From the sequence record OR621298: DNA of 64,000 nt; one strand, 5' to 3'. A program made the position numbers and the translations under genes. Numbering within the stretch: the stretch's first letter is position 1; the number at the start of each line of letters is the position of its first letter. Shown here piece after piece: positions 33,676 through 43,901 of this stretch. The notes beneath the pieces are model-generated. The model saw only the letters and a list, made by a program, of their open reading frames with translations, did not search any database and was not told the DNA's origin. This DNA comes from Escherichia phage vB_EcoD-Elw.

Positions 33676-33828
33676 TTACTTTTCCAGTTCATCAGCTATG
33701 GCTTTGATTTTTTCAAAGTTTACATCACTAATAATGATACCTTCCAGTGACAGAGATATTCTAGCATTTTTCATAGCAGATTCTTTTATCTGCTCTATTT
33801 CTTCTGGAGTAAACTCCCTACGTTCCAT
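33676..33828 (-). CDS. small acidic protein (50 aa)
   Basis: Not in ORF track; ATG with RBS AAGGTAGG; between two tRNA genes. Confidence 0.3.
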   Translation of the reverse strand: MERREFTPEEIEQIKESAMKNARISLSLEGIIISDVNFEKIKAIADELEK

Positions 33829-33845
33829 AGCTAACCTACCTTATT

Positions 33846-33922
33846 TGGCGCGACCGATGGGATTTGAACCCACATTCCCTCCCGTGACAGGAGAGTACCA
33901 TTACCAAGCCAGCCCCGGTCGC
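33846..33922 (-). tRNA. tRNA-Asp (GTC)
   Basis: Acceptor GCGACCG/CGGTCGC, anticodon arm CTCTC-CTGTCAC-GGGAG, T-loop TTCAAAT, CCA encoded. Confidence 0.6.
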
Positions 33923-33931
33923 ATAATTCAT

Positions 33932-34117
33932 TTACTCAGCTTTGAGCTTTTCAATAGCTGCATTAAGTTCTTTAAGAAACTCTTTTCGTACATTAAGACG
34001 ATTGAGACTTACTAGTATATCGTGTTTAAGTTCTTCGATGTATTTCTTTTCAACTTCAATATTGTTGATAGTGCTATCACGATGAACTTCTAGCTGCGCA
34101 ATTACATTCTTGGACAT
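33932..34117 (-). CDS. hypothetical coiled-coil protein
   Basis: 61-aa ORF. Confidence 0.4.
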   Translation of the reverse strand: MSKNVIAQLEVHRDSTINNIEVEKKYIEELKHDILVSLNRLNVRKEFLKELNAAIEKLKAE

Positions 34118-34144
34118 GCTTGTTTCCTCAGTTATTAATGAAAA

Positions 34145-34215
34145 TGGTATCTGTGGCTGAATTCGATGTCAGCAATGATAGCTGGTTGGCTACCGGTTTA
34201 CTTAACTCTACACAG
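34145..34215 (-). other. tRNA-like element with 8-nt T-loop and imperfect acceptor
   Basis: 3' ...GATACCA end and GCTGA/TCAGC stem around a CATCGAAT loop; no standard anticodon arm found. Confidence 0.25.
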
Positions 34216-34219
34216 AATT

Positions 34220-34297
34220 TGGCGGTTCCTGCTGGATTCGAACCAGCAAACCTCAACTTAACAAGATGCCGCTCTAACCAATTAGAGCTAAGGAACC
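34220..34297 (-). tRNA. tRNA-Asn (GTT)
   Basis: Perfect acceptor GGTTCCT/AGGAACC, D-stem GCTC/GAGC, T-arm GCTGG-TTCGAAT-CCAGC, anticodon loop TTGTTAA on a weak 3-bp stem. Confidence 0.5.
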
Positions 34298-34792
34298 ATA
34301 TAAGTCAGAACTAGAGTTAATACGTTCTAGATATTTACTAAGATCCCTAGAATTTATACTAAACCACTCATGTTCTTTTAAATCTTTGAAATACTGGTGA
34401 ATTAGTTTTTCACCTTTTCGTTTGTCAAACCAAAACGACCAATGCTCTAATTTATAATCCCTATATGGGGAATAGGTCTGATATTGAGCTAATCTCTCTT
34501 TTGGATTTTGACTCATACCTATTTTATACTGATTTTTCCATGCAGGATTACTAATACAGTATACAAAACCTTCAGAAATAGGAAGTTTATTTTCCTGCTT
34601 AAACTTTATAAAGGAAAGTGCGGCAAGTTTTCTCGAATACATAGTATTCGTATTCTTTTTGGTATTACCATTAGTTCCTGAAAGATTTATATATTCTTCC
34701 ATAAATCTTTGGATTAGTTCTGCGGTTATACAGAAAGGCCCATTAGTAACAACGCCTTTCTTTACCAAACTATCAAAAACTTTTGTATGCAC
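34274..34792 (-). CDS. T5orf172-type GIY-YIG-like domain protein (putative homing endonuclease)
   Basis: 172-aa ORF (GTG start in track); GFVYCISNPAWKNQYKIGMSQNPKERL resembles the GIY-YIG-like T5orf172 domain; 3' end overlaps tRNA-Asn. Confidence 0.6.
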   Translation of the reverse strand: MHTKVFDSLVKKGVVTNGPFCITAELIQRFMEEYINLSGTNGNTKKNTNTMYSRKLAALSFIKFKQENKLPISEGFVYCISNPAWKNQYKIGMSQNPKERLAQYQTYSPYRDYKLEHWSFWFDKRKGEKLIHQYFKDLKEHEWFSINSRDLSKYLERINSSSDLYGSLALIG

Positions 34793-34813
34793 TACTTCTT
34801 TCCTTTAGTAAAT

Positions 34814-34889
34814 TGGACGACCGCATGAGATTTGAACTCACATAAAAAGGATTTGCAATCCTTCGCCTAAGCCCTTCAGCCAACGGTCG
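34814..34889 (-). tRNA. tRNA-Cys (GCA)
   Basis: Anticodon arm AAGGA-TTGCAAA-TCCTT, T-loop TTCAAAT, acceptor CGACCGT/GCGGTCG, CCA encoded. Confidence 0.6.
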
Positions 34890-34958
34890 GTTTATCTTGT
34901 TCTGTCATGTTGCTTCTCCAGTTCAATTTATGTAATTATTATACAGAACTTTTGGAAA

Positions 34959-35231
34959 CTAAGCAACTACATTTTTTAAGAATTTGATGCCTTTCTTTTT
35001 CTTCTTATATTTCCACGTTAATGGATTCTGTCGATTATGAACGCTTGAGATCTTTGTCTCGTCAAAGTTCTTCAATATCATGTAATCACAGGATAATTGT
35101 TCTAGTAGAATGTGATCACCGTCAAAAGCGTATACATAAGGCTGTTGACTAACACGATAATGATAGACTTTGTTAATTCTACGTTTCAGCGACTTATCAG
35201 CGCAGTAAATAAAGAAGTTTTCAGGATGCAT
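34959..35231 (-). CDS. hypothetical protein
   Basis: Track ORF 34959..35246 starts at TTG; trimmed to ATG (MHPENFF) with RBS AAGGAG. Confidence 0.45.
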   Translation of the reverse strand: MHPENFFIYCADKSLKRRINKVYHYRVSQQPYVYAFDGDHILLEQLSCDYMILKNFDETKISSVHNRQNPLTWKYKKKKKGIKFLKNVVA

Positions 35232-35248
35232 CAGCAGCTCCTTCAATT

Positions 35249-35323
35249 TGGTGCACCCTGTTCGTATCGAACGAACCTCTCAAGCTCTTCAGGCAAGCGC
35301 TAATCCATCTCAGCTAAAGGTGC
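35249..35323 (-). tRNA. tRNA-Phe (GAA)
   Basis: Perfect T-arm GTTCG-TTCGATA-CGAAC, acceptor GCACCTT/AGGGTGC; anticodon loop CTGAAGA on a weak stem. Confidence 0.45.
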
Positions 35324-35329
35324 AAATTT

Positions 35330-35406
35330 TGGCAAACCTACTAGGACTCGAACCTAGACCGTACGGTTTTGGAGACCGACATGCTGTCCAGTAACACTCT
35401 AGGAAT
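35330..35406 (-). tRNA. tRNA-Trp (CCA)
   Basis: Anticodon arm TCGGT-CTCCAAA-ACCGT, T-arm CTAGG-TTCGAGT-CCTAG; acceptor stem has two U-U mismatches. Confidence 0.4.
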
Positions 35407-35414
35407 GCAGAAAT

Positions 35415-35491
35415 TGGCGTCCTGTGCGGGGATCGAACCCGCAAATCCTACCTTGAAAGGGTAGTGACTTTACCAGTTTGTCTAACAGGAC
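35415..35491 (-). tRNA. tRNA-Glu (TTC)
   Basis: Perfect acceptor GTCCTGT/ACAGGAC, anticodon arm CTACC-CTTTCAA-GGTAG, T-arm GCGGG-TTCGATC-CCCGC, CCA. Confidence 0.65.
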
Positions 35492-35498
35492 TTAAATT

Positions 35499-35589
35499 TG
35501 GTGTTGGATGATGGAGTCGAACCACCCGAGACCCTTCCGAGTCGGCAGATTTACAGTCTGCTTCGCTACCTCTACGATACTAATCCAAC
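35499..35589 (-). tRNA. tRNA-Tyr (GTA), class II
   Basis: 91 nt; perfect acceptor GTTGGAT/ATCCAAC, anticodon arm GCAGA-CTGTAAA-TCTGC, long variable arm, CCA. Confidence 0.6.
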
Positions 35590-35719
35590 ATATTTAGAAG
35601 TATTCAAAAATTCTCATTTAAACACTTTTAAATATGCTTTCAAATTAGGTAACTATTATACCAAGTTTTAAGGCACTGAGCAAGTCAAATTTTAAAGAAC
35701 TTGCTCAGTGCTATATTAG

Positions 35720-35995
35720 TTAGTCGAACTTAGGAGTGACAGTTAAGGAGAACGGAAGTTCGAAAACTTCTTCACCCTCATTACTAACGGTAACTACACG
35801 ACCTTTAAGTTCAGACATTAAAATATCAATATCAGCTTTTGCATCTGGAGCCATGCCAGCTTCAATACATTTAGCTTTAACCTCCGGTAGAAGATCTACG
35901 TTATAGAGATAGAGCCACTCAATCTCACCTTCCCAGTCTTCCCAGGATTTGCAGATTGCACTTTCAATACCAGTTGCTACAACACGATTTTGCAT
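35720..35995 (-). CDS. hypothetical protein
   Basis: 91-aa ORF; RBS GAAGGAG. Confidence 0.5.
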   Translation of the reverse strand: MQNRVVATGIESAICKSWEDWEGEIEWLYLYNVDLLPEVKAKCIEAGMAPDAKADIDILMSELKGRVVTVSNEGEEVFELPFSLTVTPKFD

Positions 35996-36085
35996 TCGTT
36001 AACTCCTTCATCAATTTATACAACTATTATATCAGAAATTTAAAGCAAAAGGCAAGTACATTTTTAAAAATTCTGTTTGGAGGAG

Positions 36086-36292
36086 CTAAACTCCAGATTC
36101 TTCAGCTAAGTCTAGGCTAATAAGAGTTATAGCCATAATTGCTGCACCGTGTTCTTTTTCTCCGGTGTTTTTAGCAGAGTCTATAATAGTCTTAATCTGT
36201 TCGTAATAGCCTTTTACTTCTTGTTCAATACCTGCCTCGGCTATCATGCCTTTAGTCATGATTCGTTGCATAGTAATTTCACGGTTAGCCAT
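36086..36292 (-). CDS. hypothetical protein
   Basis: 68-aa ORF. Confidence 0.45.
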   Translation of the reverse strand: MANREITMQRIMTKGMIAEAGIEQEVKGYYEQIKTIIDSAKNTGEKEHGAAIMAITLISLDLAEESGV

Positions 36293-36452
36293 GATGTTTC
36301 TCCAGCTTCATTTTTAATAGTTTACAAATGAAATCAACGTCTTCATCTGTACCTAGATCTCTATCTTCAAGAGTTGCCTTGAAGTTTTTAGTCAATTCCA
36401 TGAGGATAACTTCTCTAGAACGACGTGTTGGCGGAGGTGGATGTCTATACAT
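36285..36452 (-). CDS. small Pro-rich protein (55 aa)
   Basis: Not in ORF track; hand-translated; 8-nt overlap with the downstream start codon. Confidence 0.35.
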   Translation of the reverse strand: MYRHPPPPTRRSREVILMELTKNFKATLEDRDLGTDEDVDFICKLLKMKLEKHHG

Positions 36453-36467
36453 CTTATTTCCTTAGTT

Positions 36468-36544
36468 TGGTAGGGGTGGTGGGATTCGAACCCACAAAAC
36501 CTGAATTTTAAGTCCAGTACCTATGCCAATTCGATTACACCCCC
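36468..36544 (-). tRNA. tRNA with anticodon TAA (Leu-type anticodon) in a short 77-nt class-I-like body
   Basis: Perfect anticodon arm CTGGA-CTTAAAA-TTCAG, T-arm GTGGG-TTCGAAT-CCCAC, discriminator A, CCA; variable region only 5 nt. Confidence 0.5.
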
Positions 36545-36551
36545 GTGTAGT

Positions 36552-36740
36552 TTAGTCAATTACTTTTGAGGCTTCAAGGTAGTCGATATAGTGTATGTTT
36601 TCTACCGTAATCATATAATCTGCCACTTTATCCATAGCTTGGGCTTCAGAGGTAGCTCTGGCTAACCTATATCCTTTTTTATATTCATCCGGGTATTCTC
36701 TATCTTGGATAAACACAACATAAACTATATATAGATCCAT
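36552..36740 (-). CDS. hypothetical protein
   Basis: 62-aa ORF. Confidence 0.4.
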   Translation of the reverse strand: MDLYIVYVVFIQDREYPDEYKKGYRLARATSEAQAMDKVADYMITVENIHYIDYLEASKVID

Positions 36741-36759
36741 TTGTGACCTCTATTTAATT

Positions 36760-36837
36760 TGGTGGCTCCCCGAGGATTCGAACCTACGTACCTTCCGGTT
36801 ATGAGCCGGGTGCTCATACCATATGAGCTTGAGAACC
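36760..36837 (-). tRNA. tRNA anticodon CAT (Met or Ile-lysidine)
   Basis: Anticodon arm CCCGG-CTCATAA-CCGGA; acceptor pairs with two G-U; T-stem only 3 bp. Confidence 0.45.
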
Positions 36838-36843
36838 AGAATT

Positions 36844-36932
36844 TGGCGGAAGAAGCGGGAATCGAACCCACAAGGCTATATTTCAAACCGACAGATTAGC
36901 AATCTGCTGCAATACCGTTATGCTATTCTTCC
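36844..36932 (-). tRNA. tRNA-Ser (GCT), class II
   Basis: 89 nt; perfect acceptor GGAAGAA/TTCTTCC, anticodon arm GCAGA-TTGCTAA-TCTGT, long variable arm, T-loop TTCGATT, CCA. Confidence 0.6.
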
Positions 36933-36953
36933 GAATTTATAAGATATATTATA

Positions 36954-37472
36954 TTAGAAATTTAGCTTCATAGCAAGAAAATTTTTCAAGTTTTCGGTAG
37001 ACATCTCATCCACATCTACGGGAGAAACAAAGCCGTTTAATTTTCTAGCAAATTTTTCACCCGCAGGATCATTATCTCCGACAGCTACCAATTTAAAAGG
37101 TAGTAATTTCAGTTGCTTTAATAACGCTTTTCCTGGAGAAGAACCCAACATTGCTAGGGCTGGATAACCAGCATTATGTAACGCAACTGCCTTAAATACA
37201 GATTCAGCAATCAATACTACTTTTTCATCTCCATTGAGAGTTTCTAGTCCCCATACACACTGGGTAGTAGAATAAGTAAAGTATTTAGCTTCAAAGGGGC
37301 ACTTACCATGACCTTTTGGAGCAGAAGGATTATAAGTTTGATAGCCCCTCAACATCCCAGAGAAGTCATACAACGGGACTGTTAGCCATCCTTCCGGACT
37401 TAACCAGCAATGATATTTATCTGTATCAAATCCTCTAGATAAGAGGTGCTGTGTTAGCTCATCAACATTCAT
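36954..37472 (-). CDS. Toprim-domain protein (DnaG/primase-like catalytic core)
   Basis: Track ORF trimmed to M18 (the first 17 codons are the promoter read backwards); VAVGDNDPAGEKFA is a Toprim DxD signature; RBS AAGAGGAA. Confidence 0.5.
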   Translation of the reverse strand: MNVDELTQHLLSRGFDTDKYHCWLSPEGWLTVPLYDFSGMLRGYQTYNPSAPKGHGKCPFEAKYFTYSTTQCVWGLETLNGDEKVVLIAESVFKAVALHNAGYPALAMLGSSPGKALLKQLKLLPFKLVAVGDNDPAGEKFARKLNGFVSPVDVDEMSTENLKNFLAMKLNF

Positions 37473-37502
37473 ATTTGGTTCCTCTTTCAAATTTATAGAT
37501 AT

Positions 37503-37531
37503 ATTATACAGAGAATTTAGCATTCAAGCAA
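37503..37531 (-). promoter_or_regulatory. T5-type early promoter
   Basis: -10 TATAAT, -35 TTGCTT, 17-bp spacer, conserved downstream box. Confidence 0.6.
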
Positions 37532-37646
37532 TCAAATTTTTTAACTTTTTAGAGGAAAATCATAGGGCACTTAAGGATAGCAGATAAGTGGTGAGGACCA
37601 AAATTTGTGACCCCACTAAAAATTCAGGGGCAATTTTTAAAGACCC

Positions 37647-37675
37647 CTTGACATTTTCGCTGGGGTAGTGTAAAG
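37647..37675 (+). promoter_or_regulatory. sigma70-like promoter (-35 TTGACA, -10 TAAAGT) for the plus-strand cassette
   Basis: Consensus -35 with 17-bp spacer; -10 matches 4 of 6; preceded by a GGGG...CCCC hairpin. Confidence 0.4.
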
Positions 37676-37737
37676 TATATGTTATGGATGAGTGATCAAA
37701 GAGACACACATTTTCTATATACTAGGAGGTGTCAAAA

Positions 37738-38721
37738 ATGACAGAAGAAGTAGCTAAGAGTCCTGAGACCGTCGCTAGCGTTGCAGCAGAACTGCACCGT
37801 CACGAGGAATCAGATAAGAAAAAGTGGGAGAAGGTCAGAGCCTACGAAGAAAAACATCGTGAACACGATGATGAAGAAGATGATGATGAACATTGTCATA
37901 AATATGGAAAACATAAAATGCAAGAACCAGTAAACGTATTTACTAGTGGCTTCCCTGGCCTACTGGGTGGTTACCCAGCAAACGCAGGTGCTTTCGGTGG
38001 TGAAGGTATGGGACTATTCGGAGCTATCCTAATCGGTGCTCTATTAACAGGCGGATTCGGTGGTTTCGGTGGATTCGGTGGACGTGGTGTAGTTGGTGAT
38101 GGTACCGCAGTTGATGCAGTACTTCAGAACCAAGATACCGCTAGTATTCTAGCAGCTATTAACACTACTCGTACAGAAGCTAACCAGGGTACTGGAGCTG
38201 TTTTAAGCGCAGTTAACAATGGGTTTAGCCAGACATCCCAAAACCAGAGCCGTGATACTCAGTCTGTACTAACTACGATCTATGGTACAGGTGCTAATCT
38301 GTCTAATCAGATCTGTCAGGAAACTCGCAACGTTATTCAGGGTCAGTTCGATCTTTCTCGCCAGATTGATCAATCTTTCGCAGCTAATCAGATAGCTCGT
38401 GCACAAGATAAGTTTGATTCTGCACAGATCGCTTTCCAGCAGACTTTACAAACTAATAACCAGTTTGCCGCTGTTCAGGCTCAGATGTGTGCTAACCAGA
38501 ACTCTCTGGAACGTCAGATCGCTGAATGTTGCTGTGAACTTCAGACTGCGATCGCTGGTGTAACTACTGCGCGTATTCAGGATGAGTTAGATGCATGTCG
38601 CCTACGTGAAGCAATCGCTGCGGGTAACGGTGCTAACGGTCAGGTAATTAATCAAATCGCTGTAAGTCTTGGTGCTATCACTCAGACTCTGGCTGGTCTG
38701 CAGGCTAAACTGCCGGCTTAA
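37738..38721 (+). CDS. low-complexity protein: acidic/His N-terminus, Gly-rich hydrophobic segment, Q/N-rich C-terminus
   Basis: Track ORF 37729..38721 (GTG) trimmed to ATG 9 nt after RBS AGGAGG; GGFGGFGGFGG and hydrophobic GLFGAILIGALLTGG segment. Confidence 0.55.
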   Translation: MTEEVAKSPETVASVAAELHRHEESDKKKWEKVRAYEEKHREHDDEEDDDEHCHKYGKHKMQEPVNVFTSGFPGLLGGYPANAGAFGGEGMGLFGAILIGALLTGGFGGFGGFGGRGVVGDGTAVDAVLQNQDTASILAAINTTRTEANQGTGAVLSAVNNGFSQTSQNQSRDTQSVLTTIYGTGANLSNQICQETRNVIQGQFDLSRQIDQSFAANQIARAQDKFDSAQIAFQQTLQTNNQFAAVQAQMCANQNSLERQIAECCCELQTAIAGVTTARIQDELDACRLREAIAAGNGANGQVINQIAVSLGAITQTLAGLQAKLPA

Positions 38722-38742
38722 TATTAAGGGGAGGAGCCCATT

Positions 38743-39159
38743 ATGAGTAAATATGGTTTTGTAAATAACGGACTTAATCAAAGTATGGGCTCCCAGCAGC
38801 CCATTCCGGGTCTGGATAACCCCTACTTACAACAATTGCAACAGCGTTTAGCAGAAGCGCAACAGATGCAGCAACAACTCCAGCAAAACCCTGGAAGTGT
38901 GAGTCCTATGCAAATGATGCAGCAAATGAGCGGGCAGTCGCAAATGCCTCAACAAATGCAGCAACAGGTGCCGCAGCAGCAAGCTCAGCAGCAAACCCAA
39001 CAACCGCAGGTTTCTGCGGAAGGACAGGCAGTACTAGCCCTTTTCGAAGACTTCGCAAAGACAGAGGATGGTAAGCAGCTTGTATCACTTATGGGTAAGT
39101 TTAATAGCTTCTGCCAAAGCCAGGTTGCAAAAGCTCAAAATAGTGGTAATAACTCCTAA
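38743..39159 (+). CDS. Gln-rich low-complexity protein
   Basis: 138-aa ORF; RBS GGGGAGGAG; central QQ/MQ repeats. Confidence 0.5.
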   Translation: MSKYGFVNNGLNQSMGSQQPIPGLDNPYLQQLQQRLAEAQQMQQQLQQNPGSVSPMQMMQQMSGQSQMPQQMQQQVPQQQAQQQTQQPQVSAEGQAVLALFEDFAKTEDGKQLVSLMGKFNSFCQSQVAKAQNSGNNS

Positions 39160-39168
39160 GGAGGAATT

Positions 39169-39363
39169 ATGTGTTGCAGAAAATCTGTTTCGTGCTGCCC
39201 AATGCCTGTAGCACGTTGTTGCTCTCCAGCAATGTTTACGCAAATACCGGCGTTCAATCCGTTTGCCTTTAAGCCTACTCTTATCCTGCCCCCTAGAGTA
39301 GATTTTCAGTCAAGATTGGCCTCCCGTATGGGTGGTTGCTGTAATAAGAGTATATGGTTCTGA
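39169..39363 (+). CDS. Cys/Pro-rich small peptide (64 aa)
   Basis: RBS AGGAGG; paired CC motifs (MCCRK, SCC, RCC, GGCC). Confidence 0.45.
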   Translation: MCCRKSVSCCPMPVARCCSPAMFTQIPAFNPFAFKPTLILPPRVDFQSRLASRMGGCCNKSIWF

Positions 39364-39377
39364 AGAACCAAACAATA

Positions 39378-39413
39378 AAGCCCCTAGTCGAAAGACTTAG
39401 GGGCTTTTCTTTT
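39378..39413 (+). terminator. rho-independent terminator
   Basis: stem AAGCCCCTAG/CTAGGGGCTT followed by TTTTCTTTT. Confidence 0.65.
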
Positions 39414-39420
39414 ATCTTAA

Positions 39421-39460
39421 ATACAGAAAAGCCCTGCGCTCTCCAGGAAACGCAGGGCTT
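39421..39460 (-). terminator. rho-independent terminator (convergent)
   Basis: stem AGCCCTGCG/CGCAGGGCT with U-run in minus sense, downstream of the SPFH gene. Confidence 0.55.
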
Positions 39461-39483
39461 ATTTCAGATGTTACATGCGGGTA

Positions 39484-40431
39484 TTACTTATTACGCATAT
39501 CCATAATCATTTGGCCATCATAGCCAGTGCCAACCACAGTCTGCGGTACACCACCTTGGTATTTCTGAGCACGAATCATTTCAACTTCCAGTTGCTTCCA
39601 GCGAATCATCTCAGGAGTAATGGTACGTTGCAACGCGGCGTTAGCTTCAGCTTCTTTCTTAGCTGCGTACAGTTTGGCATCTGCGTCACGCTCATTGGCA
39701 ATAGCTTGGTTATTACGAGCTTCGCGATCTGCTTCTGCTTGTTTAACCTTCTGCTGTGCTTCTTGTTCAACACGAGCCAGTTCAGCTTTCGCAGCATTAA
39801 CTTGCTCTTCACGAACTTTGGTATTCTGTACCTGTTCCATGATTACCGGTGGCAAAGTAATATCCTGAAGGAATACCTGCTTAACTGTATAACCATATGG
39901 GCGTGCATACTCTTCAACTTCCTGTTGAATTGCAGTTTGCAATTGAGCCTGAATTTTAGCATCAAACAAATCTTGTGCTTTAGGTACAGACTTACCAAAC
40001 TCACGAATAGTAGACAGTAATTTTTCAGTTACATATTTGTCTAGCGCTTGATCCTGAGTACCTGCGTTAATACGGTTAATCGGTGCCTTAGAACCATCAA
40101 ACTGCAACATAACAGTCAGGTCAACAGTGGATTTAAACTTATCCTGACTAGGAACCTGAAGTTTATCTAATTTTAGAGCAATATCTTTAGTACTAAAAGT
40201 ATCGAAAGAAGCAAAAGGATTTACAATATGAAAGCCGGGTAGTACTGGGCTAGGGTCAACTTTACCCAGGAAAGTCTGGGTTTTAACAGTACCGTCTTGA
40301 ACAACGGTATAAGAGTTAAAGGCTAGAATCAAGCCTGCTAAACCAACTATAGCACCAATACCCCAACGTTTAATAGTACGAATTACTTTCTGCTCAGAAG
40401 TCAGTTCTTTCATATTTTTAGTATTAAACAT
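39484..40431 (-). CDS. SPFH/band-7 (prohibitin/HflC-like) membrane protein
   Basis: 315-aa ORF; N-terminal TM, SPFH-like core, C-terminal coiled-coil rich in E/A/Q/K. Confidence 0.6.
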   Translation of the reverse strand: MFNTKNMKELTSEQKVIRTIKRWGIGAIVGLAGLILAFNSYTVVQDGTVKTQTFLGKVDPSPVLPGFHIVNPFASFDTFSTKDIALKLDKLQVPSQDKFKSTVDLTVMLQFDGSKAPINRINAGTQDQALDKYVTEKLLSTIREFGKSVPKAQDLFDAKIQAQLQTAIQQEVEEYARPYGYTVKQVFLQDITLPPVIMEQVQNTKVREEQVNAAKAELARVEQEAQQKVKQAEADREARNNQAIANERDADAKLYAAKKEAEANAALQRTITPEMIRWKQLEVEMIRAQKYQGGVPQTVVGTGYDGQMIMDMRNK

Positions 40432-40465
40432 ATATTTCCTTTGTTTTAGTTACAGTTAATAAAAT

Positions 40466-40540
40466 TGGCCGAGGTGACAGGATTCGAACCTGCATAAAGG
40501 AATTTAGAAGACTCCTGCCTCTCCATTAGACTACACCCCG
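40466..40540 (-). tRNA. tRNA-Arg (TCT)
   Basis: Anticodon arm GGAGT-CTTCTAA-ATTCC, T-arm GCAGG-TTCGAAT-CCTGT, acceptor CGGGGTG/CACCTCG, CCA. Confidence 0.6.
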
Positions 40541-41337
40541 TTTAAGTATTTTTAAGAACTCTCGTAAAAACTCTTAAAAATACAGACGATACCGGGAGAG
40601 TCATAAGTCTCACTCATTAAGTATTTCAAGACAAAATACAGTAACGTCTATTATTTTCCAGTTTAAGTCAAGGTGACTTAGTGGTTATGTCCTGCGGTAT
40701 ACTGAGGACTCGGTTAGGATTGGGGTCATGACTTCCCGCCTTTTGCTGCTACTCAACAGGAGTTATCGCGAATTACCTGTGCTATTGTGCACCATTAGTG
40801 ACATCTCTCATGTCAGCATTTCCCACTTTGTGGATAGCTTGAAAAACTACTCCGATATGGAGAAAGAACTTCACTATCCTAGAATACCTTCTAAAGTTCT
40901 TCTTTAGCCTGGACATAGTTAAATCGTAATAAAACTATTCAGCAGACTAGTTGGTTAGTCTGGAACCAACTACCGCGTGGTTTAGGCAGTGCGCAACTAA
41001 CCTCGGAAGCTTTTACGTTAAAAGCATCAGTTATCCAGTTCTTACCGACCGTAGGATTCGAACCTACATCTTCCACCAGTTACGGCTTGATAATACCAAT
41101 TATACTAGGACGGCAGTGTTACTACATAAGTGATTTCCACACCCCACTATTTATAAATTAGGGAAGAGTTTAGGGGAGAGGTTTCAGACGCCTCATTTTA
41201 TACGTTCTAGCCACTAACCGGGATTGCCGCCCCCTGTGTACTAGTTTTACAACTAACCCACCGACTCTATTCAATGCGCTCCGGTTGGGATTCTGCACTC
41301 AGCGTAATCGGCTCGCTGTTCCCTAATTTATGAATAT

Positions 41338-41366
41338 ATTATACAGAATTTATAAGCATTTAGCAA
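41338..41366 (-). promoter_or_regulatory. T5-type early promoter reading into the 40.5-41.3 kb non-coding region and tRNA-Arg
   Basis: -10 TATAAT, -35 TTGCTA, 17-bp spacer. Confidence 0.55.
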
Positions 41367-41374
41367 ATGAATTT

Positions 41375-41809
41375 TTAGAAAAATTCACTAGCGATCAAAG
41401 CAGTTGTTTTACCGTCATAACGTCCAGGAAATTCTGCCTTAATAGTTTTCATTAATAGAGCTTTGGTAATACCTGGATTTAATTTAACCAGTTCTGCAAA
41501 ATACTCACGAATCTGAACTTCAGTTAACTGCTCCAGAGCATATTCATGCTCTAGACCTGCTAACAAGTCGAGATATTCAGCATCTGGAGTATATTCGATA
41601 TTTGCTTTTGCAGCAGAAGTCATTGTATTCTCAATTGCTTTGAACTGTGATTTAACCCAGTTAGTAAACTCTAGTCTAGATACGCAATCTTTATCAATTC
41701 GTTGTAAGTCGCCTAAAATCGTACTAAGGTGCTTGACTGACACAGTATCACCGTGTTTGCGAGCTTTTTCAATTAATTCTCGCAGCACACGAATCATATT
41801 CGTACCCAT
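41375..41809 (-). CDS. hypothetical protein
   Basis: 144-aa ORF; start overlaps upstream stop (TAATG). Confidence 0.5.
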   Translation of the reverse strand: MGTNMIRVLRELIEKARKHGDTVSVKHLSTILGDLQRIDKDCVSRLEFTNWVKSQFKAIENTMTSAAKANIEYTPDAEYLDLLAGLEHEYALEQLTEVQIREYFAELVKLNPGITKALLMKTIKAEFPGRYDGKTTALIASEFF

Positions 41810-41979
41810 TATTTCATCCCCAATGCTTGGTTAAAAGATTGTTCTGTCATAACTGCTGAGACTTTGGCGAAATCAAACTTTTTAGGGTTCGTAGTGATTT
41901 CAGCAACGTTAGAAGTTTTAACAGTTTTCGTAGTACGAATACCACGAGTGTTAACACCAATAATTACAACTGATTTCAT
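41809..41979 (-). CDS. small protein (56 aa)
   Basis: Not in ORF track; ATG with RBS GAGAGGAAG; stop overlaps the next start. Confidence 0.4.
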   Translation of the reverse strand: MKSVVIIGVNTRGIRTTKTVKTSNVAEITTNPKKFDFAKVSAVMTEQSFNQALGMK

Positions 41980-42047: not shown

Positions 42048-42497
42048 TTAAGTTTTAGTGACAACAGGTTTATAAAACGTATGTCCCTTAATCTTAGTTG
42101 TTTTCTTAAACTTCTTTGTCCAGTAAGGTTTATCTTTACCACTATGGAAGTATAGTGCTCCATGTGTAGGATCTTGTGGTAAATCAACGTAGTATATCAC
42201 TCTAGCTAAATTCTTAGCGGTTTGCCAAGCCTCATCAGTTTTATCAACTTTTGGTCTCTTAGATACCCAAGAGAACTGGTTAGACTGATATACTACTTTA
42301 CAGTAGGAATCTGGGAATTTACCGGAGTTTACACGGTTTTTAGTAACATATGCAATCGCCGTCATTCCCTTTATGCCCTCACCACGACTTTCGAAATAGA
42401 TATTTTTAGCAATGCAATCTATTTCTTTTGCATCGTGCGATGCCTGACTACTAAAGCTGAAGGTAAGGGCAGCTACTAAAAGCAAAGCTGCCTTCAT
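42048..42497 (-). CDS. secreted cell-wall hydrolase (SleB/CwlJ-like)
   Basis: Track ORF trimmed to MKAALLL (signal peptide); NIYFESRGEG and YCKVVYQSNQFSW motifs; RBS AGGAG. Confidence 0.55.
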   Translation of the reverse strand: MKAALLLVAALTFSFSSQASHDAKEIDCIAKNIYFESRGEGIKGMTAIAYVTKNRVNSGKFPDSYCKVVYQSNQFSWVSKRPKVDKTDEAWQTAKNLARVIYYVDLPQDPTHGALYFHSGKDKPYWTKKFKKTTKIKGHTFYKPVVTKT

Positions 42498-42502
42498 TCT
42501 TT

Positions 42503-42820
42503 TTACTCCTGCCAATCATATTCAACACGATTGGGATTTTCTTTATACCCTAAGTCAAGCAAATCATTACGCATATTTTGCTTAGCTACTGGGTTCGAGG
42601 TTACTAGTACCACTTTCTTTGGTCTCTGTCCAAATTCTAAGAGTAAACGAAGAATTTGATAACCTTCCATACCATCTACAGCCAAGTCATTATCCATATA
42701 AACGAAATGGCCTGTGGTATCAGTTTTATTCAGAAACTCTACAGCGGCTTCTGGGGTTCGAATGATAATGTCCATTCCGTGAAGATTGCGCACATCATCA
42801 ATCAAAATATGAAAAGTCAT
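42503..42820 (-). CDS. stand-alone receiver (CheY-like REC) domain protein
   Basis: 105-aa ORF; acidic pocket residues (DD near N-terminus, central D, later T/S and K) spaced as in receiver domains. Confidence 0.4.
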   Translation of the reverse strand: MTFHILIDDVRNLHGMDIIIRTPEAAVEFLNKTDTTGHFVYMDNDLAVDGMEGYQILRLLLEFGQRPKKVVLVTSNPVAKQNMRNDLLDLGYKENPNRVEYDWQE

Positions 42821-43262: not shown

Positions 43263-43901
43263 TTACTCTACTTCAATGAAGGTAGAGGCGTTAGACTCGG
43301 ACAGAACAAAGTCAACATTTGTTGCAAAGTCCTGATATTCCTCGTCATGCTGCTTAATCAGCTTCTCCAGTTCCAGCGGATCAATCAAGAATGGAGTATT
43401 CTTGAGTTCCAGCAGGTTGAGCTGCATTTTAACCTCATCTTCGGAAGTTTTCTTATCGCGGGTAGCCATGCTATCCTGCAAACGCTCATATTTAGTATCA
43501 AACTGTGCTTTCTGCGTATTAAACTTAACCGTAGCGGCGTGGAACTGCTTACGCATGTTAGCCAGCAGTTGAGCTTTAAGTTCCATAGAACGCTTAGCTT
43601 CAATTGCTTCCGCAACAGTCATCTTACGAGAACCAATCTCAACTACTGTTTCCGCATTGCTCTTAATCAGAGCAGCTTTGATACGATCACGCTGGGACAT
43701 CATATCCAGGAGAGATTGGAAATCTGCCTTAATACGAGCAGATAGATCGTCTACTTCGATTGCAGCGCCAACTACAACCTTATTTTTATCCTTACCTTCA
43801 CCAACAGCGATCAGAAGCTGTTGTTCAGTAGCTTTACGGATTTTAGCTTCCAGAGATTTGATAGTTGCCAGAGCGCGAGTTTTAGAGATACGAGTAGTCA
43901 T
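43263..43901 (-). CDS. coiled-coil protein
   Basis: 212-aa ORF; RBS AAGGAAG. Confidence 0.5.
   Translation of the reverse strand: MTTRISKTRALATIKSLEAKIRKATEQQLLIAVGEGKDKNKVVVGAAIEVDDLSARIKADFQSLLDMMSQRDRIKAALIKSNAETVVEIGSRKMTVAEAIEAKRSMELKAQLLANMRKQFHAATVKFNTQKAQFDTKYERLQDSMATRDKKTSEDEVKMQLNLLELKNTPFLIDPLELEKLIKQHDEEYQDFATNVDFVLSESNASTFIEVE

What the first reader, a model, noticed from the sequence alone, without database searches (positions are those of the whole stretch)
39484..40431. SPFH/band-7 (prohibitin-like) membrane protein next to the tRNA cluster
SPFH proteins organise membrane microdomains and regulate membrane proteases such as FtsH. A phage-encoded copy transcribed early and convergent with the low-complexity cassette could modulate host membrane proteostasis or shield phage membrane proteins.
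Basis: partly seen in the sequence, partly recalled or inferred. Interest (0 to 1): 0.4.

Follow-up and report, generated by a model that had tools for sequence, protein, structure and literature searches.

The report
Phage T5-type SPFH membrane protein gene
This is a real, well-conserved gene for a membrane-anchored SPFH (band-7/prohibitin-like) protein, already annotated as such in related T5-like phages; the phage can do without it in the laboratory and nobody yet knows what it does.

Summary
Confirmed. Window 39484-40431 (minus strand) encodes a 315-aa protein that hits Pfam Band_7 (E 2.5e-17). It is the ortholog of phage T5 gene T5.080 and of PhiSP15 ORF78 (97-98% identical). The AlphaFold model (pLDDT 80) shows the full plan of cage-forming SPFH proteins: TM helix, SPFH core, 76-residue CC1 helix, CC2 helix and a conserved C-terminal tail. 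It matches erlin, prohibitin, HflK/C, stomatin and QmcA over about 300 columns. The gene lies 35 nt downstream of tRNA-Arg and converges on a plus-strand cassette at a bidirectional terminator.

It is already annotated as SPFH in public records, and T4-like homologs were listed in 2006. It is dispensable: absent from the T5 st0 deletion strain, almost wholly deleted in NG_S8, probably absent from BF23, and 'Not Fit' in a T5 knockdown screen. Yet it is under strong purifying selection (dN/dS 0.03-0.07). It occurs in at least three phage families and in Morganella/Providencia chromosomes, always without a partner gene.

It is not an HflK/HflC ortholog and not a lipoprotein (no cysteine). The basic N-terminal tail suggests the SPFH domain faces the periplasm, but this is uncertain. 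The proposed FtsH/proteostasis role is plausible and untested. Already known as a feature; modest interest.

The parts
39484..40431 (-). CDS, 315 aa: SPFH/band-7 membrane protein, ortholog of T5 gene T5.080 and PhiSP15 ORF78 (stop codon 39484-39486)
   Evidence: ORF. Pfam Band_7 E 2.5e-17. T5 annotation. 97% identical to T5.080 and 98.1% to PhiSP15 ORF78. dN/dS 0.03-0.06.
40366..40431 (-). Basic N-terminal tail, aa 1-22 (6 K/R, 2 E), predicted cytoplasmic
   Evidence: Sequence. 115 of 117 family members have at least one K/R in the tail, and 102 of 117 have at least two K/R in the 6 residues before the hydrophobic core. HflK and HflC share this pattern; QmcA lacks it.
40309..40365 (-). Single transmembrane helix, about aa 23-41
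   Evidence: Only hydrophobic segment in the protein, Kyte-Doolittle 1.79. Lies within the AF2 helix 12-38.
39856..40308 (-). SPFH alpha/beta core, aa 42-192, with the invariant PSQDK.K motif at aa 94-100
   Evidence: AF2 strands and helices 41-192. Foldseek matches to stomatin, HflK/C, prohibitin and erlin cores. Invariant columns.
39622..39849 (-). CC1: one continuous 76-residue helix, aa 195-270, the predicted wall helix of an SPFH cage
   Evidence: AF2, pLDDT about 85-92. Family insertions here are 11 or 22 residues long. CC1 plan taken from PMC12624060.
39562..39615 (-). CC2 helix, aa 273-290
   Evidence: AF2. Conserved W278, L281, A288.
39487..39561 (-). Conserved C-terminal tail, aa 291-315, with short beta-strands; the predicted cap-forming region
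   Evidence: Invariant G293, P296, T298, G301 despite low monomer pLDDT of 42-48.
40435..40441 (-). Ribosome-binding site AAGGAAA; the AGGA ends 5 nt before the ATG
   Evidence: Sequence. An RBS is annotated at the same place in phiR2-01.
40466..40540 (-). tRNA-Arg(UCU), 35 nt upstream on the same strand; probably co-transcribed
   Evidence: ARAGORN. Rfam tRNA 52.3 bits. Same order in T5, SP15, STG2 and phiR2-01.
40541..41337 (-). Non-coding leader, equivalent to T5 'RNA X' (stable RNA of unknown function); contains a tRNA-like element at 41043-41114
   Evidence: T5 annotation. Only ORFs of 60 aa or fewer here. Rfam tRNA 35.5 bits against a gathering score of 29.
41338..41366 (-). Sigma-70 promoter-like site TTGCTA-17-TATAAT; position equivalent to T5 promoter P16-17
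   Evidence: Scan, 10 of 12 matches. T5 regulatory feature overlapping the start of T5.081. Position mapped by synteny of T5.081 to window 41375-41809.
39429..39460 (-). 13-bp hairpin just after the stop codon carrying the T5 major nick-site consensus GGAGA|GCGC; nick predicted between 39440 and 39439 on the minus strand
   Evidence: Scan. Alignment with T5 and T5's annotated 'major DNA single-chain interruption'.
39377..39407 (.). Bidirectional rho-independent terminator shared with the convergent plus-strand cassette
   Evidence: A-run, stem, T-run in the sequence. Aligns with the T5 feature 'efficient bidirectional rho-independent transcription terminator'.

Best explanation
The ORF encodes the T5.080-family phage SPFH protein, a 35-kDa single-pass inner-membrane protein.

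Shown:
- It has the complete domain plan of the SPFH proteins that form membrane cages: TM helix, SPFH core, a long CC1 helix of 76 residues, CC2, and a conserved C-terminal tail.
- It has no paralog and no NfeD-type partner gene in any lineage examined.
- It is an accessory gene, dispensable for lytic growth in the laboratory.
- It is nevertheless under strong purifying selection and is shared among unrelated virulent phages of gamma-proteobacteria and the chromosomes of Morganellaceae.

Inferred from homology with T5: it is expressed early from the sigma-70 promoter about 0.9 kb upstream. It would be the last element of a transcript that also carries a long non-coding RNA and tRNA-Arg, ending at a bidirectional terminator.

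Inferred mechanism:
- The basic N-terminal tail stays in the cytoplasm, so the whole SPFH-CC1-CC2 ectodomain faces the periplasm (about 0.65).
- That is the orientation of HflK/C, and of prohibitin and erlin in their own compartments.
- The protein self-assembles into a homo-oligomeric dome of roughly 24 subunits (about 0.84 MDa) that fences off a patch of inner membrane (about 0.7).

The function I commit to as most likely: by corralling that patch it changes the access of inner-membrane proteins to quality control, most plausibly FtsH-type proteolysis. This would stabilise phage or host envelope proteins under conditions not met in standard laboratory infections (about 0.25-0.3 for the FtsH step specifically).
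For: Identity and fold:
- Pfam Band_7 at 63.9 bits.
- AF2 model with pLDDT 80 showing TM 12-38, SPFH 41-192, helix 195-270, helix 273-290 and C-terminal strands.
- Foldseek probability 1.00 over 265-311 columns to erlin1/2 (6.5e-15), PHB1/2 (4.7e-13), HflC (5.3e-12), stomatin and QmcA.
- The TM-SPFH1/2-CC1-CC2-CT plan is the published plan of cage formers. The published regression, subunits = 0.1782 x CC1 length + 10.22, gives about 24 for 76 residues (PMC12624060).
- CC1 length variants in the family differ by 11 or 22 residues, which would keep the helix in register.
- The C-terminal tail is invariant at G293, P296, T298 and G301 although the monomer model is unsure of it, as expected for an inter-subunit cap.

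Solo gene: only SPFH is shared among T5-like, T4-like, Moazamivirus, Vibrio-phage and 124-152 kb phage loci.

Orientation:
- 115 of 117 members have K/R in the N-tail, and 102 of 117 have at least two K/R in the 6 residues before the TM.
- This is the pattern of HflK and HflC (periplasmic) and not of QmcA (cytoplasmic, no tail) (PMC10434171).
- 113 of 119 members have no cysteine, as do HflK and HflC.

Transcription unit.

Dispensable:
- The st0 deletion covers wild-type T5 33,681-41,878, which contains T5.080.
- NG_S8 keeps only the last 42 codons.
- BF23 lacks T5 ORF071-075 and tRNA-Arg, so probably this gene too (PMC10644984).
- CRISPRi-ART classed T5.080 'Not Fit' with 7 guides (PMC11879866 supplement).

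Constrained: dN/dS 0.03-0.07. T5-like and T4-like copies are 75% identical overall and 83% over residues 39-313, with saturated synonymous sites.

Envelope-related neighbours in other lineages:
- rI and rI.-1 in a T4-like phage.
- A superinfection-exclusion gene in PhiSH19, although I did not confirm that the 263-aa PhiSH19 SPFH protein belongs to this clade.
- A secreted Hydrolase_2 in T5-likes and in the 124-152 kb lineage, and TelA/TerD in the latter.
Against: - Oligomerisation, topology and any client are inferred; nothing here tests them.
- A plain positive-inside flank comparison miscalled HflK and HflC. The orientation call therefore rests on a post-hoc N-tail criterion checked on only three controls.
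- The closest host paralog by sequence is cytoplasm-facing QmcA: 96% probability over 201 columns, and the best PDB sequence hit at 3.5e-7.
- HflC aligns over only 32 columns and HflK essentially not at all.
- No HflK/HflC NCBIfam model is hit.
- No phenotype on deletion or knockdown.
- No paper links any phage SPFH protein to FtsH.
- The AF2 alignment is shallow: 30 sequences, all at least 56% identical to the query.
Confidence: 0.55

Rival explanations
1. Counter-defence factor. The SPFH assembly protects the infected cell's inner membrane from membrane-attacking abortive-infection effectors, or it accounts for the unmapped anti-AVAST type 2 activity of the T5 'Anti-Defense Island'.
For: - The gene lies inside the roughly 8 kb deletable region of T5, and the st0 deletion contains it.
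- Azam et al. showed that an approximately 8 kb deletable region of this kind carries several anti-defence determinants: tRNA-Tyr, Rad/ORF75 and ORF71-73.
- Loss of that region in T5n lowers infectivity on AVAST 2, and the responsible gene was not identified (bioRxiv 10.1101/2023.03.15.532788).
- The window's Rad ortholog (36954-37523) is 100% identical to PhiSP15 Rad and lies about 2 kb away.
- BF23 lost the block that starts with Rad; its authors read this as loss of an antidefense locus.
- The profile of accessory, dispensable, constrained and horizontally mobile is typical of counter-defence genes.
Against: - ORF78 and fragment 9 are never mentioned in either paper.
- The fragments that rescued phage from the tested retrons were F6, F7 and F8, not one reported to carry this gene.
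- The text does not show that the SP15 or T5n island boundary equals the st0 boundary.
- To my knowledge AVAST 2 is a cytoplasmic STAND NTPase, with no obvious link to a membrane scaffold.
- No PADLOC hit and no precedent for an SPFH anti-defence protein in the literature searched.
- In T4-like phages the gene sits in a generic hyperplastic region.
Confidence: 0.18
2. Superinfection exclusion or envelope protection. A periplasm-facing SPFH lattice blocks DNA entry by secondary phages, or protects the infected cell from lysis from without.
For: - Predicted periplasmic ectodomain.
- Early expression inferred.
- The gene lies next to rI and rI.-1 in PF-CE2 and within 3 kb of rI in 44RR2.8t.
- An SPFH gene lies next to a 'superinfection exclusion protein' in PhiSH19 (PMC3220722); clade membership of that 263-aa protein was not checked.
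- A function of this kind would be invisible in single-phage laboratory assays, which fits the 'Not Fit' result.
Against: - Adjacency is seen in only some lineages and in hyperplastic regions.
- From my own knowledge, T5 already has Llp for receptor blocking.
- No SPFH protein is known to act in this way.
- The chromosomal Morganella/Providencia copies sit among metabolic genes, which is not an obvious exclusion context.
Confidence: 0.12
3. Cytoplasm-facing, QmcA/flotillin-like scaffold. The SPFH domain faces the cytoplasm and organises a membrane microdomain for phage processes such as replication or assembly.
For: - QmcA is the closest host paralog and the best PDB sequence hit.
- The simple flank-charge rule is unreliable for this superfamily, so the orientation is not settled.
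Against: - The basic N-tail is conserved in 115 of 117 members. From established knowledge of membrane-protein insertion, positive charges block N-tail translocation.
- QmcA has no tail.
- There is no NfeD partner, which accompanies qmcA and yqiK (PMC10434171).
- The family has almost no cysteines.
Confidence: 0.1
4. Lipoprotein, as labelled by PHROG phrog_200 and propagated into many GenBank records.
For: Only the label itself.
Against: The protein has no cysteine at all. None of 119 family members has a lipobox, and 113 have no cysteine. A lipoprotein needs the lipobox cysteine (established knowledge).
Confidence: 0.01

Closest known systems
T5 gene T5.080 / PhiSP15 ORF78, and the T4-like homologs 44RRORF098c, Aeh1ORF064c and RB43ORF139c (PHROG phrog_200)
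   Same: Orthologs: 97-98% identity to T5 and SP15, same position after tRNA-Arg, same length. The T4-like copies are 59-75% identical overall and 83% over residues 39-313. Their SPFH domain was tabulated in 2006 (PMC1524935).
   Different: Nothing material. The N-terminal tail and TM differ between T5-like and T4-like copies. None has an assigned function, and the widespread 'lipoprotein' label is wrong.
E. coli HflK/HflC, the periplasm-facing SPFH cage around FtsH
   Same: Same overall plan and fold: Foldseek 5e-12 to HflC, about 300 columns. Basic N-terminal tail before a single TM. No NfeD partner. No cysteines. Predicted similar subunit number.
   Different: No hit to the HflK or HflC equivalog models. 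Sequence similarity is limited to 32 columns of HflC. It is one gene rather than a heterodimeric pair. It lacks HflK's 79-residue N-terminal extension. FtsH binding is untested.
E. coli QmcA-YbbJ, the cytoplasm-facing stomatin-like SPFH/NfeD complex (PDB 8z5g)
   Same: Closest characterised relative by sequence: profile E 3.5e-7 and hhalign 96% over 201 columns. Similar length (305 aa), and it is homo-oligomeric.
   Different: QmcA has no N-terminal tail and faces the cytoplasm. qmcA is paired with the NfeD gene ybbJ, whereas the phage gene has no such neighbour in any lineage.
Prohibitin PHB1/2 and erlin1/2 cages of mitochondria and the ER
   Same: Best structural matches: erlin 6.5e-15 and PHB 4.7e-13. 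Both are type II anchored, with the SPFH-CC1-CC2-CT part in the non-cytosolic compartment, and both are linked to membrane-protein quality control.
   Different: They are eukaryotic and hetero-oligomeric. Sequence identity is 15-19%.
Other virus-encoded SPFH proteins (Vibrio, Rhizobium and Streptomyces phages; giant viruses)
   Same: Same fold and length class in BFVD, E down to 2e-18. This shows that SPFH genes are recurrent viral cargo.
   Different: They share only 14-21% identity. The T5.080 clade is discrete: 89 cluster representatives at E of 1e-30 or better, among 1.84 billion.

Membership tests
SPFH / band-7 superfamily (Pfam PF01145) | Significant match to the Band_7 HMM above the gathering score | tested here: met
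   63.9 bits against a cutoff of 23.6, E 2.5e-17, aa 52-225. All full-length relatives listed carry PF01145.
SPFH / band-7 superfamily (Pfam PF01145) | Alpha/beta SPFH fold | tested here: met
   AF2 pLDDT 80. Foldseek probability 1.00 to stomatin core crystal structures and to full-length erlin, PHB, HflK/C and QmcA.
Cage-forming SPFH proteins | N-terminal membrane anchor, then SPFH1/2, a long CC1 helix, a CC2 helix and a C-terminal cap region | tested here: met
   TM about aa 23-41, SPFH 41-192, CC1 195-270, CC2 273-290, conserved tail 291-315. Plan as described in PMC12624060.
Cage-forming SPFH proteins | Assembly into a closed ring or dome of some 20-plus subunits on a membrane | not testable with these tools
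   No multimer prediction or experiment is available here. About 24 subunits is an extrapolation from a published regression.
HflK/HflC (FtsH modulators) | Match to the HflK or HflC equivalog models (TIGR01933/NF008181, TIGR01932/NF008259) | tested here: not met
   No NCBIfam hit at E up to 1. As controls, E. coli HflK and HflC hit at 4e-277 and 3e-210, and QmcA cross-hits at 4e-22.
HflK/HflC (FtsH modulators) | Two paralogous subunits encoded together, forming a hetero-oligomer | tested here: not met
   A single SPFH gene in the window, and in every phage and chromosomal locus examined.
HflK/HflC (FtsH modulators) | SPFH domain exposed to the periplasm | tested here: inconclusive
   The N-tail K/R pattern matches HflK and HflC and not QmcA. 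However, a plain flank-charge rule failed on the controls.
HflK/HflC (FtsH modulators) | Physical association with FtsH and an effect on its substrates | not testable with these tools
   Needs a pull-down or degradation assay.
Stomatin/QmcA/flotillin-type SPFH with NfeD partner | Adjacent NfeD-family gene | tested here: not met
   qmcA-ybbJ are adjacent in E. coli (PMC10434171). No shared neighbour of any kind occurs across the lineages.
Bacterial lipoprotein (PHROG phrog_200 label) | Signal peptide ending in a lipobox with an invariant cysteine | tested here: not met
   No cysteine in the protein. 0 of 119 family members have a lipobox-like motif.
Phage anti-defence genes (T5 Anti-Defense Island / tRNA-rich region) | Located within the deletable island | tested here: met
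   The st0 deletion covers wild-type T5 33,681-41,878, and T5.080 is at 39,791-40,738. That this equals the Azam et al. island boundary is assumed, not shown.
Phage anti-defence genes (T5 Anti-Defense Island / tRNA-rich region) | Demonstrated inhibition of a defence system | not tested
   ORF78 is not mentioned in either paper. The active fragments were F6, F7 and F8. PADLOC has no model for it.

The most novel reading that the evidence does not exclude
The T5.080-family protein is a self-sufficient, single-gene SPFH cage that virulent phages install on the periplasmic face of the host inner membrane as a counter-defence or exclusion device. Examples would be the still-unmapped anti-AVAST-2 activity of the T5 anti-defence island, or a shield against membrane-disrupting abortive-infection effectors or superinfecting phages. 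The Morganellaceae chromosomal copies would then be domesticated versions.
Probability: 0.12. Interest if true: 0.65.

Novelty: already known. Interest (0 to 1): 0.3.

Why it matters
SPFH proteins have recently been shown to be membrane cages (HflK/C, prohibitin, erlin, flotillin, stomatin, QmcA), but what most bacterial ones do is still unclear.

This phage family has several features that make it a compact model for asking what an SPFH cage does:
- It is a one-gene version with no partner.
- It is strongly conserved across unrelated virulent phages, and it also occurs in Morganella/Providencia chromosomes.
- It sits in a genetically tractable phage, for which deletion strains and a knockdown dataset already exist.

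The practical outputs here are three. The widely propagated 'lipoprotein' label should be corrected. The gene lies inside an experimentally defined anti-defence island whose activities are not all assigned. The obvious 'HflK/C mimic' idea does not pass the HflK/C membership tests. None of this changes the fact that the feature itself is an already annotated, non-essential accessory gene.

Tried and rejected
1. Conserved partner gene (NfeD or any other). All window ORFs were compared by tblastn with seven loci from other lineages. Only SPFH recurs everywhere. A T5.085-like gene recurs once and a Hydrolase_2 once.
2. NAD-salvage linkage. An NMN adenylyltransferase follows the gene in both phiR2-01 and PF-CE2, but the two enzymes are not homologous and the window has neither. 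Rejected as coincidence.
3. Defence-system component. No PADLOC hit.
4. Subfamily naming by NCBIfam. No hit.
5. Recent horizontal transfer as the reason for 75-83% identity between T5-like and T4-like copies. Rejected because synonymous sites are saturated.
6. Morganella/Providencia copies as prophage genes. Rejected because the neighbours are metabolic and regulatory genes. However, a distant T5-like phage contig carries a copy 81% identical to them, so there has been phage-host exchange.
7. The hairpin right after the stop codon as the terminator. Re-read as T5's major nick site. The real bidirectional terminator is the next hairpin.
8. The plain 'more K/R before than after the TM' topology rule. 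Abandoned because it miscalls HflK and HflC. Replaced by the N-tail criterion, with that caveat stated.
9. Literature on function. Searches for SPFH with bacteriophage, phage T5 or phage-encoded found only annotations. The Azam et al. papers do not mention ORF76-78 or fragment 9.
10. Virion component. Only 3 peptides for an SPFH protein in one Vi01-like phage proteome; not pursued.
Full report
**What the window is.** The window is a T5-like phage of the family Demerecviridae.
- A 6-kb slice around the finding is 97-98% identical at the DNA level to Salmonella phage SCF and to Escherichia phages EC100 and JLBYU40, among others.
- Gene order matches phage T5 itself.
- The window carries 24 tRNA genes on the minus strand.

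**Observation.** The ORF at 39484-40431 (minus strand, 315 aa, ATG) is real.
- It has a good Shine-Dalgarno sequence.
- It hits Pfam Band_7 at 63.9 bits against a cutoff of 23.6 and PHROG phrog_200 at E 1e-85.
- It is the ortholog of T5.080 (97% identity) and PhiSP15 ORF78 (98.1%).
- tRNA-Arg lies 35 nt upstream on the same strand.
- Three plus-strand ORFs converge on it.
- Several public records already call the same gene 'SPFH domain-containing protein'.
- The SPFH domain of the T4-like homologs was tabulated in 2006 (PMC1524935).

**Structure.** An AlphaFold2 model built on a 30-sequence family alignment has mean pLDDT 80. It shows a helix at 12-38 that contains the only hydrophobic segment, an alpha/beta core at 41-192, one uninterrupted helix at 195-270, a second helix at 273-290 and short C-terminal strands.
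- Foldseek matches every solved cage-forming SPFH protein over 265-311 columns at probability 1.00. Erlin1/2 scores 6.5e-15, PHB1/2 4.7e-13, HflC 5.3e-12, stomatin 7e-12 and QmcA 9e-11, followed by flotillin and major vault protein. Many viral SPFH proteins also match.
- This is the TM-SPFH1/2-CC1-CC2-CT plan described for these cages (PMC12624060).
- That paper's regression of subunit number on CC1 length gives about 24 subunits for a 76-residue CC1. This is an extrapolation.
- Family members with a longer CC1 differ by exactly 11 or 22 residues.
- The C-terminal tail is nearly invariant although the monomer model is unsure of it. Both points are what I would expect if CC1 forms a helical wall and the tail forms an inter-subunit cap. 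That is inference.

**Which SPFH protein it is.** It is not an HflK or HflC ortholog.
- No NCBIfam model is hit even at E up to 1. In the same search E. coli HflK and HflC hit their equivalog models at E 4e-277 and 3e-210, and QmcA cross-hits them at 4e-22.
- Profile comparison of the family with the host proteins gives QmcA 96% probability over 201 columns, HflC 77% over only 32 columns, and HflK 8%.
- The PDB sequence ranking is QmcA, then PHB2, PHB1 and HflC.
- The family is a discrete clade. A profile search of 1.84 billion cluster representatives finds only 2,151 proteins at E of 0.001 or better, and 89 at 1e-30 or better.

**Not a lipoprotein.** The PHROG label, copied into many records and into the CRISPRi-ART re-annotation of T5, cannot be right. 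The protein has no cysteine, 113 of 119 relatives have none, and none has a lipobox.

**Topology.** My first test compared K/R counts in the 15 residues on either side of the TM and favoured N-in.
- When I ran the same script on controls it miscalled HflK and HflC, which are periplasmic (PMC10434171). The first SPFH strands are basic in all these proteins. I therefore discard that test.
- What does separate the three controls is the N-terminal tail. QmcA (C-terminus in the cytoplasm) has none. HflC begins MRKS, and HflK has an arginine directly before the TM.
- The phage protein has a 22-residue tail with six K/R. In addition, 115 of 117 relatives have K/R in the tail, and 102 of 117 have at least two within the six residues before the hydrophobic core.
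- Positive charges block N-tail translocation (established knowledge). I therefore predict N-in, with a periplasmic SPFH domain, at about 0.65.
- This criterion was chosen after the fact and checked on only three proteins.

**Transcription unit.** Mapping the T5 annotation onto the window gives the following order on the minus strand:
- A sigma-70 promoter-like site at 41366-41338, TTGCTA-17-TATAAT, equivalent to T5 promoter P16-17.
- About 0.8 kb of non-coding sequence equivalent to T5 'RNA X', containing a tRNA-like element at 41043-41114 that Rfam scores above threshold and ARAGORN misses.
- tRNA-Arg, then the SPFH gene.
- A hairpin at 39460-39429. It is the T5 major nick site, GGAGA|GCGC, and not a terminator.
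- The bidirectional terminator at about 39407-39377.

Early expression is inferred from position. I found no direct data.

**Dispensable but constrained.**
- The T5 st0 strain joins remnants of T5p066 and T5p079. Mapping the junction onto wild-type T5 puts the deletion at 33,681-41,878, which contains T5.080 at 39,791-40,738.
- Phage NG_S8 retains only the last 42 codons.
- BF23 lacks T5 ORF071-075 and tRNA-Arg (PMC10644984), so probably this gene too. I inferred that from gene order and did not verify it.
- In the transcriptome-wide CRISPRi-ART screen of T5, T5.080 (7 guides) is 'Not Fit' (PMC11879866 supplement).
- Even so, dN/dS is 0.033 (window against T5), 0.064 (against STG2) and 0.046 (against phiR2-01).
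- In a distant T5-like contig, SPFH is 61% identical to the window's copy while the neighbouring genes are 23-54% identical.

**Distribution.**
- tblastn finds the gene in 722 phage records.
- These include T5-likes (Demerecviridae), T4-likes of Klebsiella, Enterobacter, Cronobacter and Aeromonas (Straboviridae), Moazamivirus (Grimontviridae), Vibrio phages and a 124-152 kb lineage.
- T5-like and T4-like copies are 75% identical overall and 83% over residues 39-313. Their synonymous sites are saturated, so the similarity reflects constraint and not recent transfer.
- Chromosomal copies (57-60% identity) occur in many Morganella and Providencia species among ordinary metabolic genes. More distant ones occur in Bacterioplanoides and Vibrio.
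- In a rough NJ tree without support values, the Morganellaceae clade nests among phage clades. It groups with a copy 81% identical to it that sits on a distant T5-like phage contig.

**No partner gene.** Across all loci only SPFH itself is shared.
- The NMN adenylyltransferases that follow it in two lineages are unrelated to each other.
- Neighbours do often act on the envelope: rI and rI.-1, a signal-peptide Hydrolase_2 and TelA/TerD.
- An SPFH gene also lies next to a superinfection-exclusion gene in PhiSH19. I did not check whether that 263-aa protein belongs to this clade.
- This is weak, circumstantial support for an envelope-level role.

**Anti-defence context.**
- The ORF at 36954-37523 is 100% identical to Rad, the anti-retron protein of PhiSP15 (bioRxiv 10.1101/2023.03.15.532788).
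- Azam et al. define an approximately 8 kb deletable 'Anti-Defense Island' (tRNA-rich region) and assign activities to fragments 6-8.
- They note that losing the island also lowers T5 infectivity on AVAST 2, without identifying the gene.
- ORF78, the SPFH gene, is never mentioned.
- The st0 deletion shows that the gene lies in the equivalent T5 region. I could not confirm that their island has the same right-hand boundary.

**Mechanism.** What is shown is the identity, the fold plan, the solo-gene status, the dispensability, the selection and the distribution.
- What is inferred is that it forms a homo-oligomeric, probably periplasm-facing dome that fences off inner membrane.
- For its purpose I commit to the closest analogy. 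Type II anchored SPFH cages (HflK/C, prohibitin, erlin) all gate membrane-protein quality control, so it would alter FtsH-type turnover of envelope proteins in the infected cell.
- I hold that only at about 0.25-0.3. The protein fails the HflK/C membership tests and nothing links it to FtsH.
- Counter-defence (0.18), exclusion or envelope protection (0.12) and a cytoplasm-facing scaffold (0.10) remain open.

**Verdict.** The functional speculation is reasonable but untested, and weaker than it looks. The feature is already annotated in public records. Interest is modest. Its main value is as a tractable, one-gene model for SPFH cages and as an untested candidate within an anti-defence island.

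Noticed in passing
window 36954-37523 (-): This 189-aa Toprim-domain ORF is labelled 'DNA primase' by PHROGs. It is 100% identical to PhiSP15 ORF75, which is Rad, the published anti-retron protein. T5.076 is classed 'anti-defense, Semi-Fit' in the CRISPRi-ART data.
   Followed up: yes
window 39429-39460: The strongest 'terminator-like' hairpin of the region carries the T5 major single-strand nick consensus GGAGA|GCGC. The nick is predicted between 39440 and 39439 on the minus strand. The sequence is conserved with T5, where a major DNA interruption is annotated at the same spot.
   Followed up: yes
window 41043-41114 (-), within 40541-41337: Rfam finds a tRNA-like element (35.5 bits, gathering score 29) that ARAGORN does not report. 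It lies inside the roughly 0.8 kb non-coding stretch equivalent to T5 'RNA X', a stable RNA of unknown function. EC100-type records annotate a 'tRNA-OTHER' in this region.
   Followed up: partly
window 42048-42515 (-): This early-region Hydrolase_2 (SleB-like cell-wall hydrolase) has a clear Sec signal peptide and is distinct from the lysis endolysin. A homolog (36% identity) sits about 400 nt from the SPFH gene in an unrelated 124-152 kb phage lineage (L026), next to TelA, TerD and vWA-TerF genes.
   Followed up: partly
window 42503-42820 (-): A 105-aa protein with a cREC_REC (cyclic-phosphate processing receiver) domain, E 3.8e-15. It is the T5.084 ortholog. The domain recurs in the distant T5-like contig L028.
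   Followed up: no
window 43263-43901 (-); L004 5860-6501: This T5.085 ortholog is labelled 'tail fiber protein' by PHROG 1491. It lies in the early region. A 30%-identical homolog lies about 1 kb from the SPFH gene in Moazamivirus SeKF_80. The 'tail fiber' label looks doubtful.
   Followed up: partly
window 37729-38721, 38743-39159, 39169-39363 (+): The convergent cassette corresponds to T5.077, T5.078 and T5.079. It comprises a 330-aa protein with an acidic/His-rich N-terminus, a Gly-rich hydrophobic stretch and a Q/N/T-rich tail; a 138-aa Gln-rich protein; and a 64-aa Cys-rich peptide. No Pfam hits, and all three are 'Not Fit' in T5. The cassette is absent next to the SPFH gene in phiR2-01 and in all non-T5 lineages examined.
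   Followed up: partly
window 41375-41809 (-): The T5.081 ortholog (144 aa) is labelled 'tRNA amidotransferase' by PHROG 1460. Its counterpart in L028 carries a weak YqeY-domain hit. The right end of the T5 st0 deletion falls inside this gene.
   Followed up: no
L018 5968-6939, L010 5971-6936 and 11 other loci (L007-L019): Morganella and Providencia species carry a chromosomal SPFH gene of this phage clade. The copies are 57-60% identical to the window's and 89% identical between the two genera. They sit among metabolic genes, in different contexts in the two genera. A copy 81% identical to them is on a distant T5-like phage contig (L028).
   Followed up: partly
L006 (NZ_JBHSCL010000010.1, 'Flagellimonas marina', 178,077 bp contig); P0026 ('plasmid', Klebsiella pneumoniae, 174 kb): These records carry the gene together with T4-like neighbours (rI.-1, NMNAT/Nudix at 90-92% identity to phage PF-CE2). 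They look like T4-like phage genomes deposited as bacterial contigs or plasmids.
   Followed up: partly
L021 2713-3948 (Yersinia phage phiR2-01): In this T5-like phage the convergent cassette downstream of the SPFH gene is replaced by same-strand NAD-salvage genes: an NMN adenylyltransferase and a PnuC-like transporter.
   Followed up: partly
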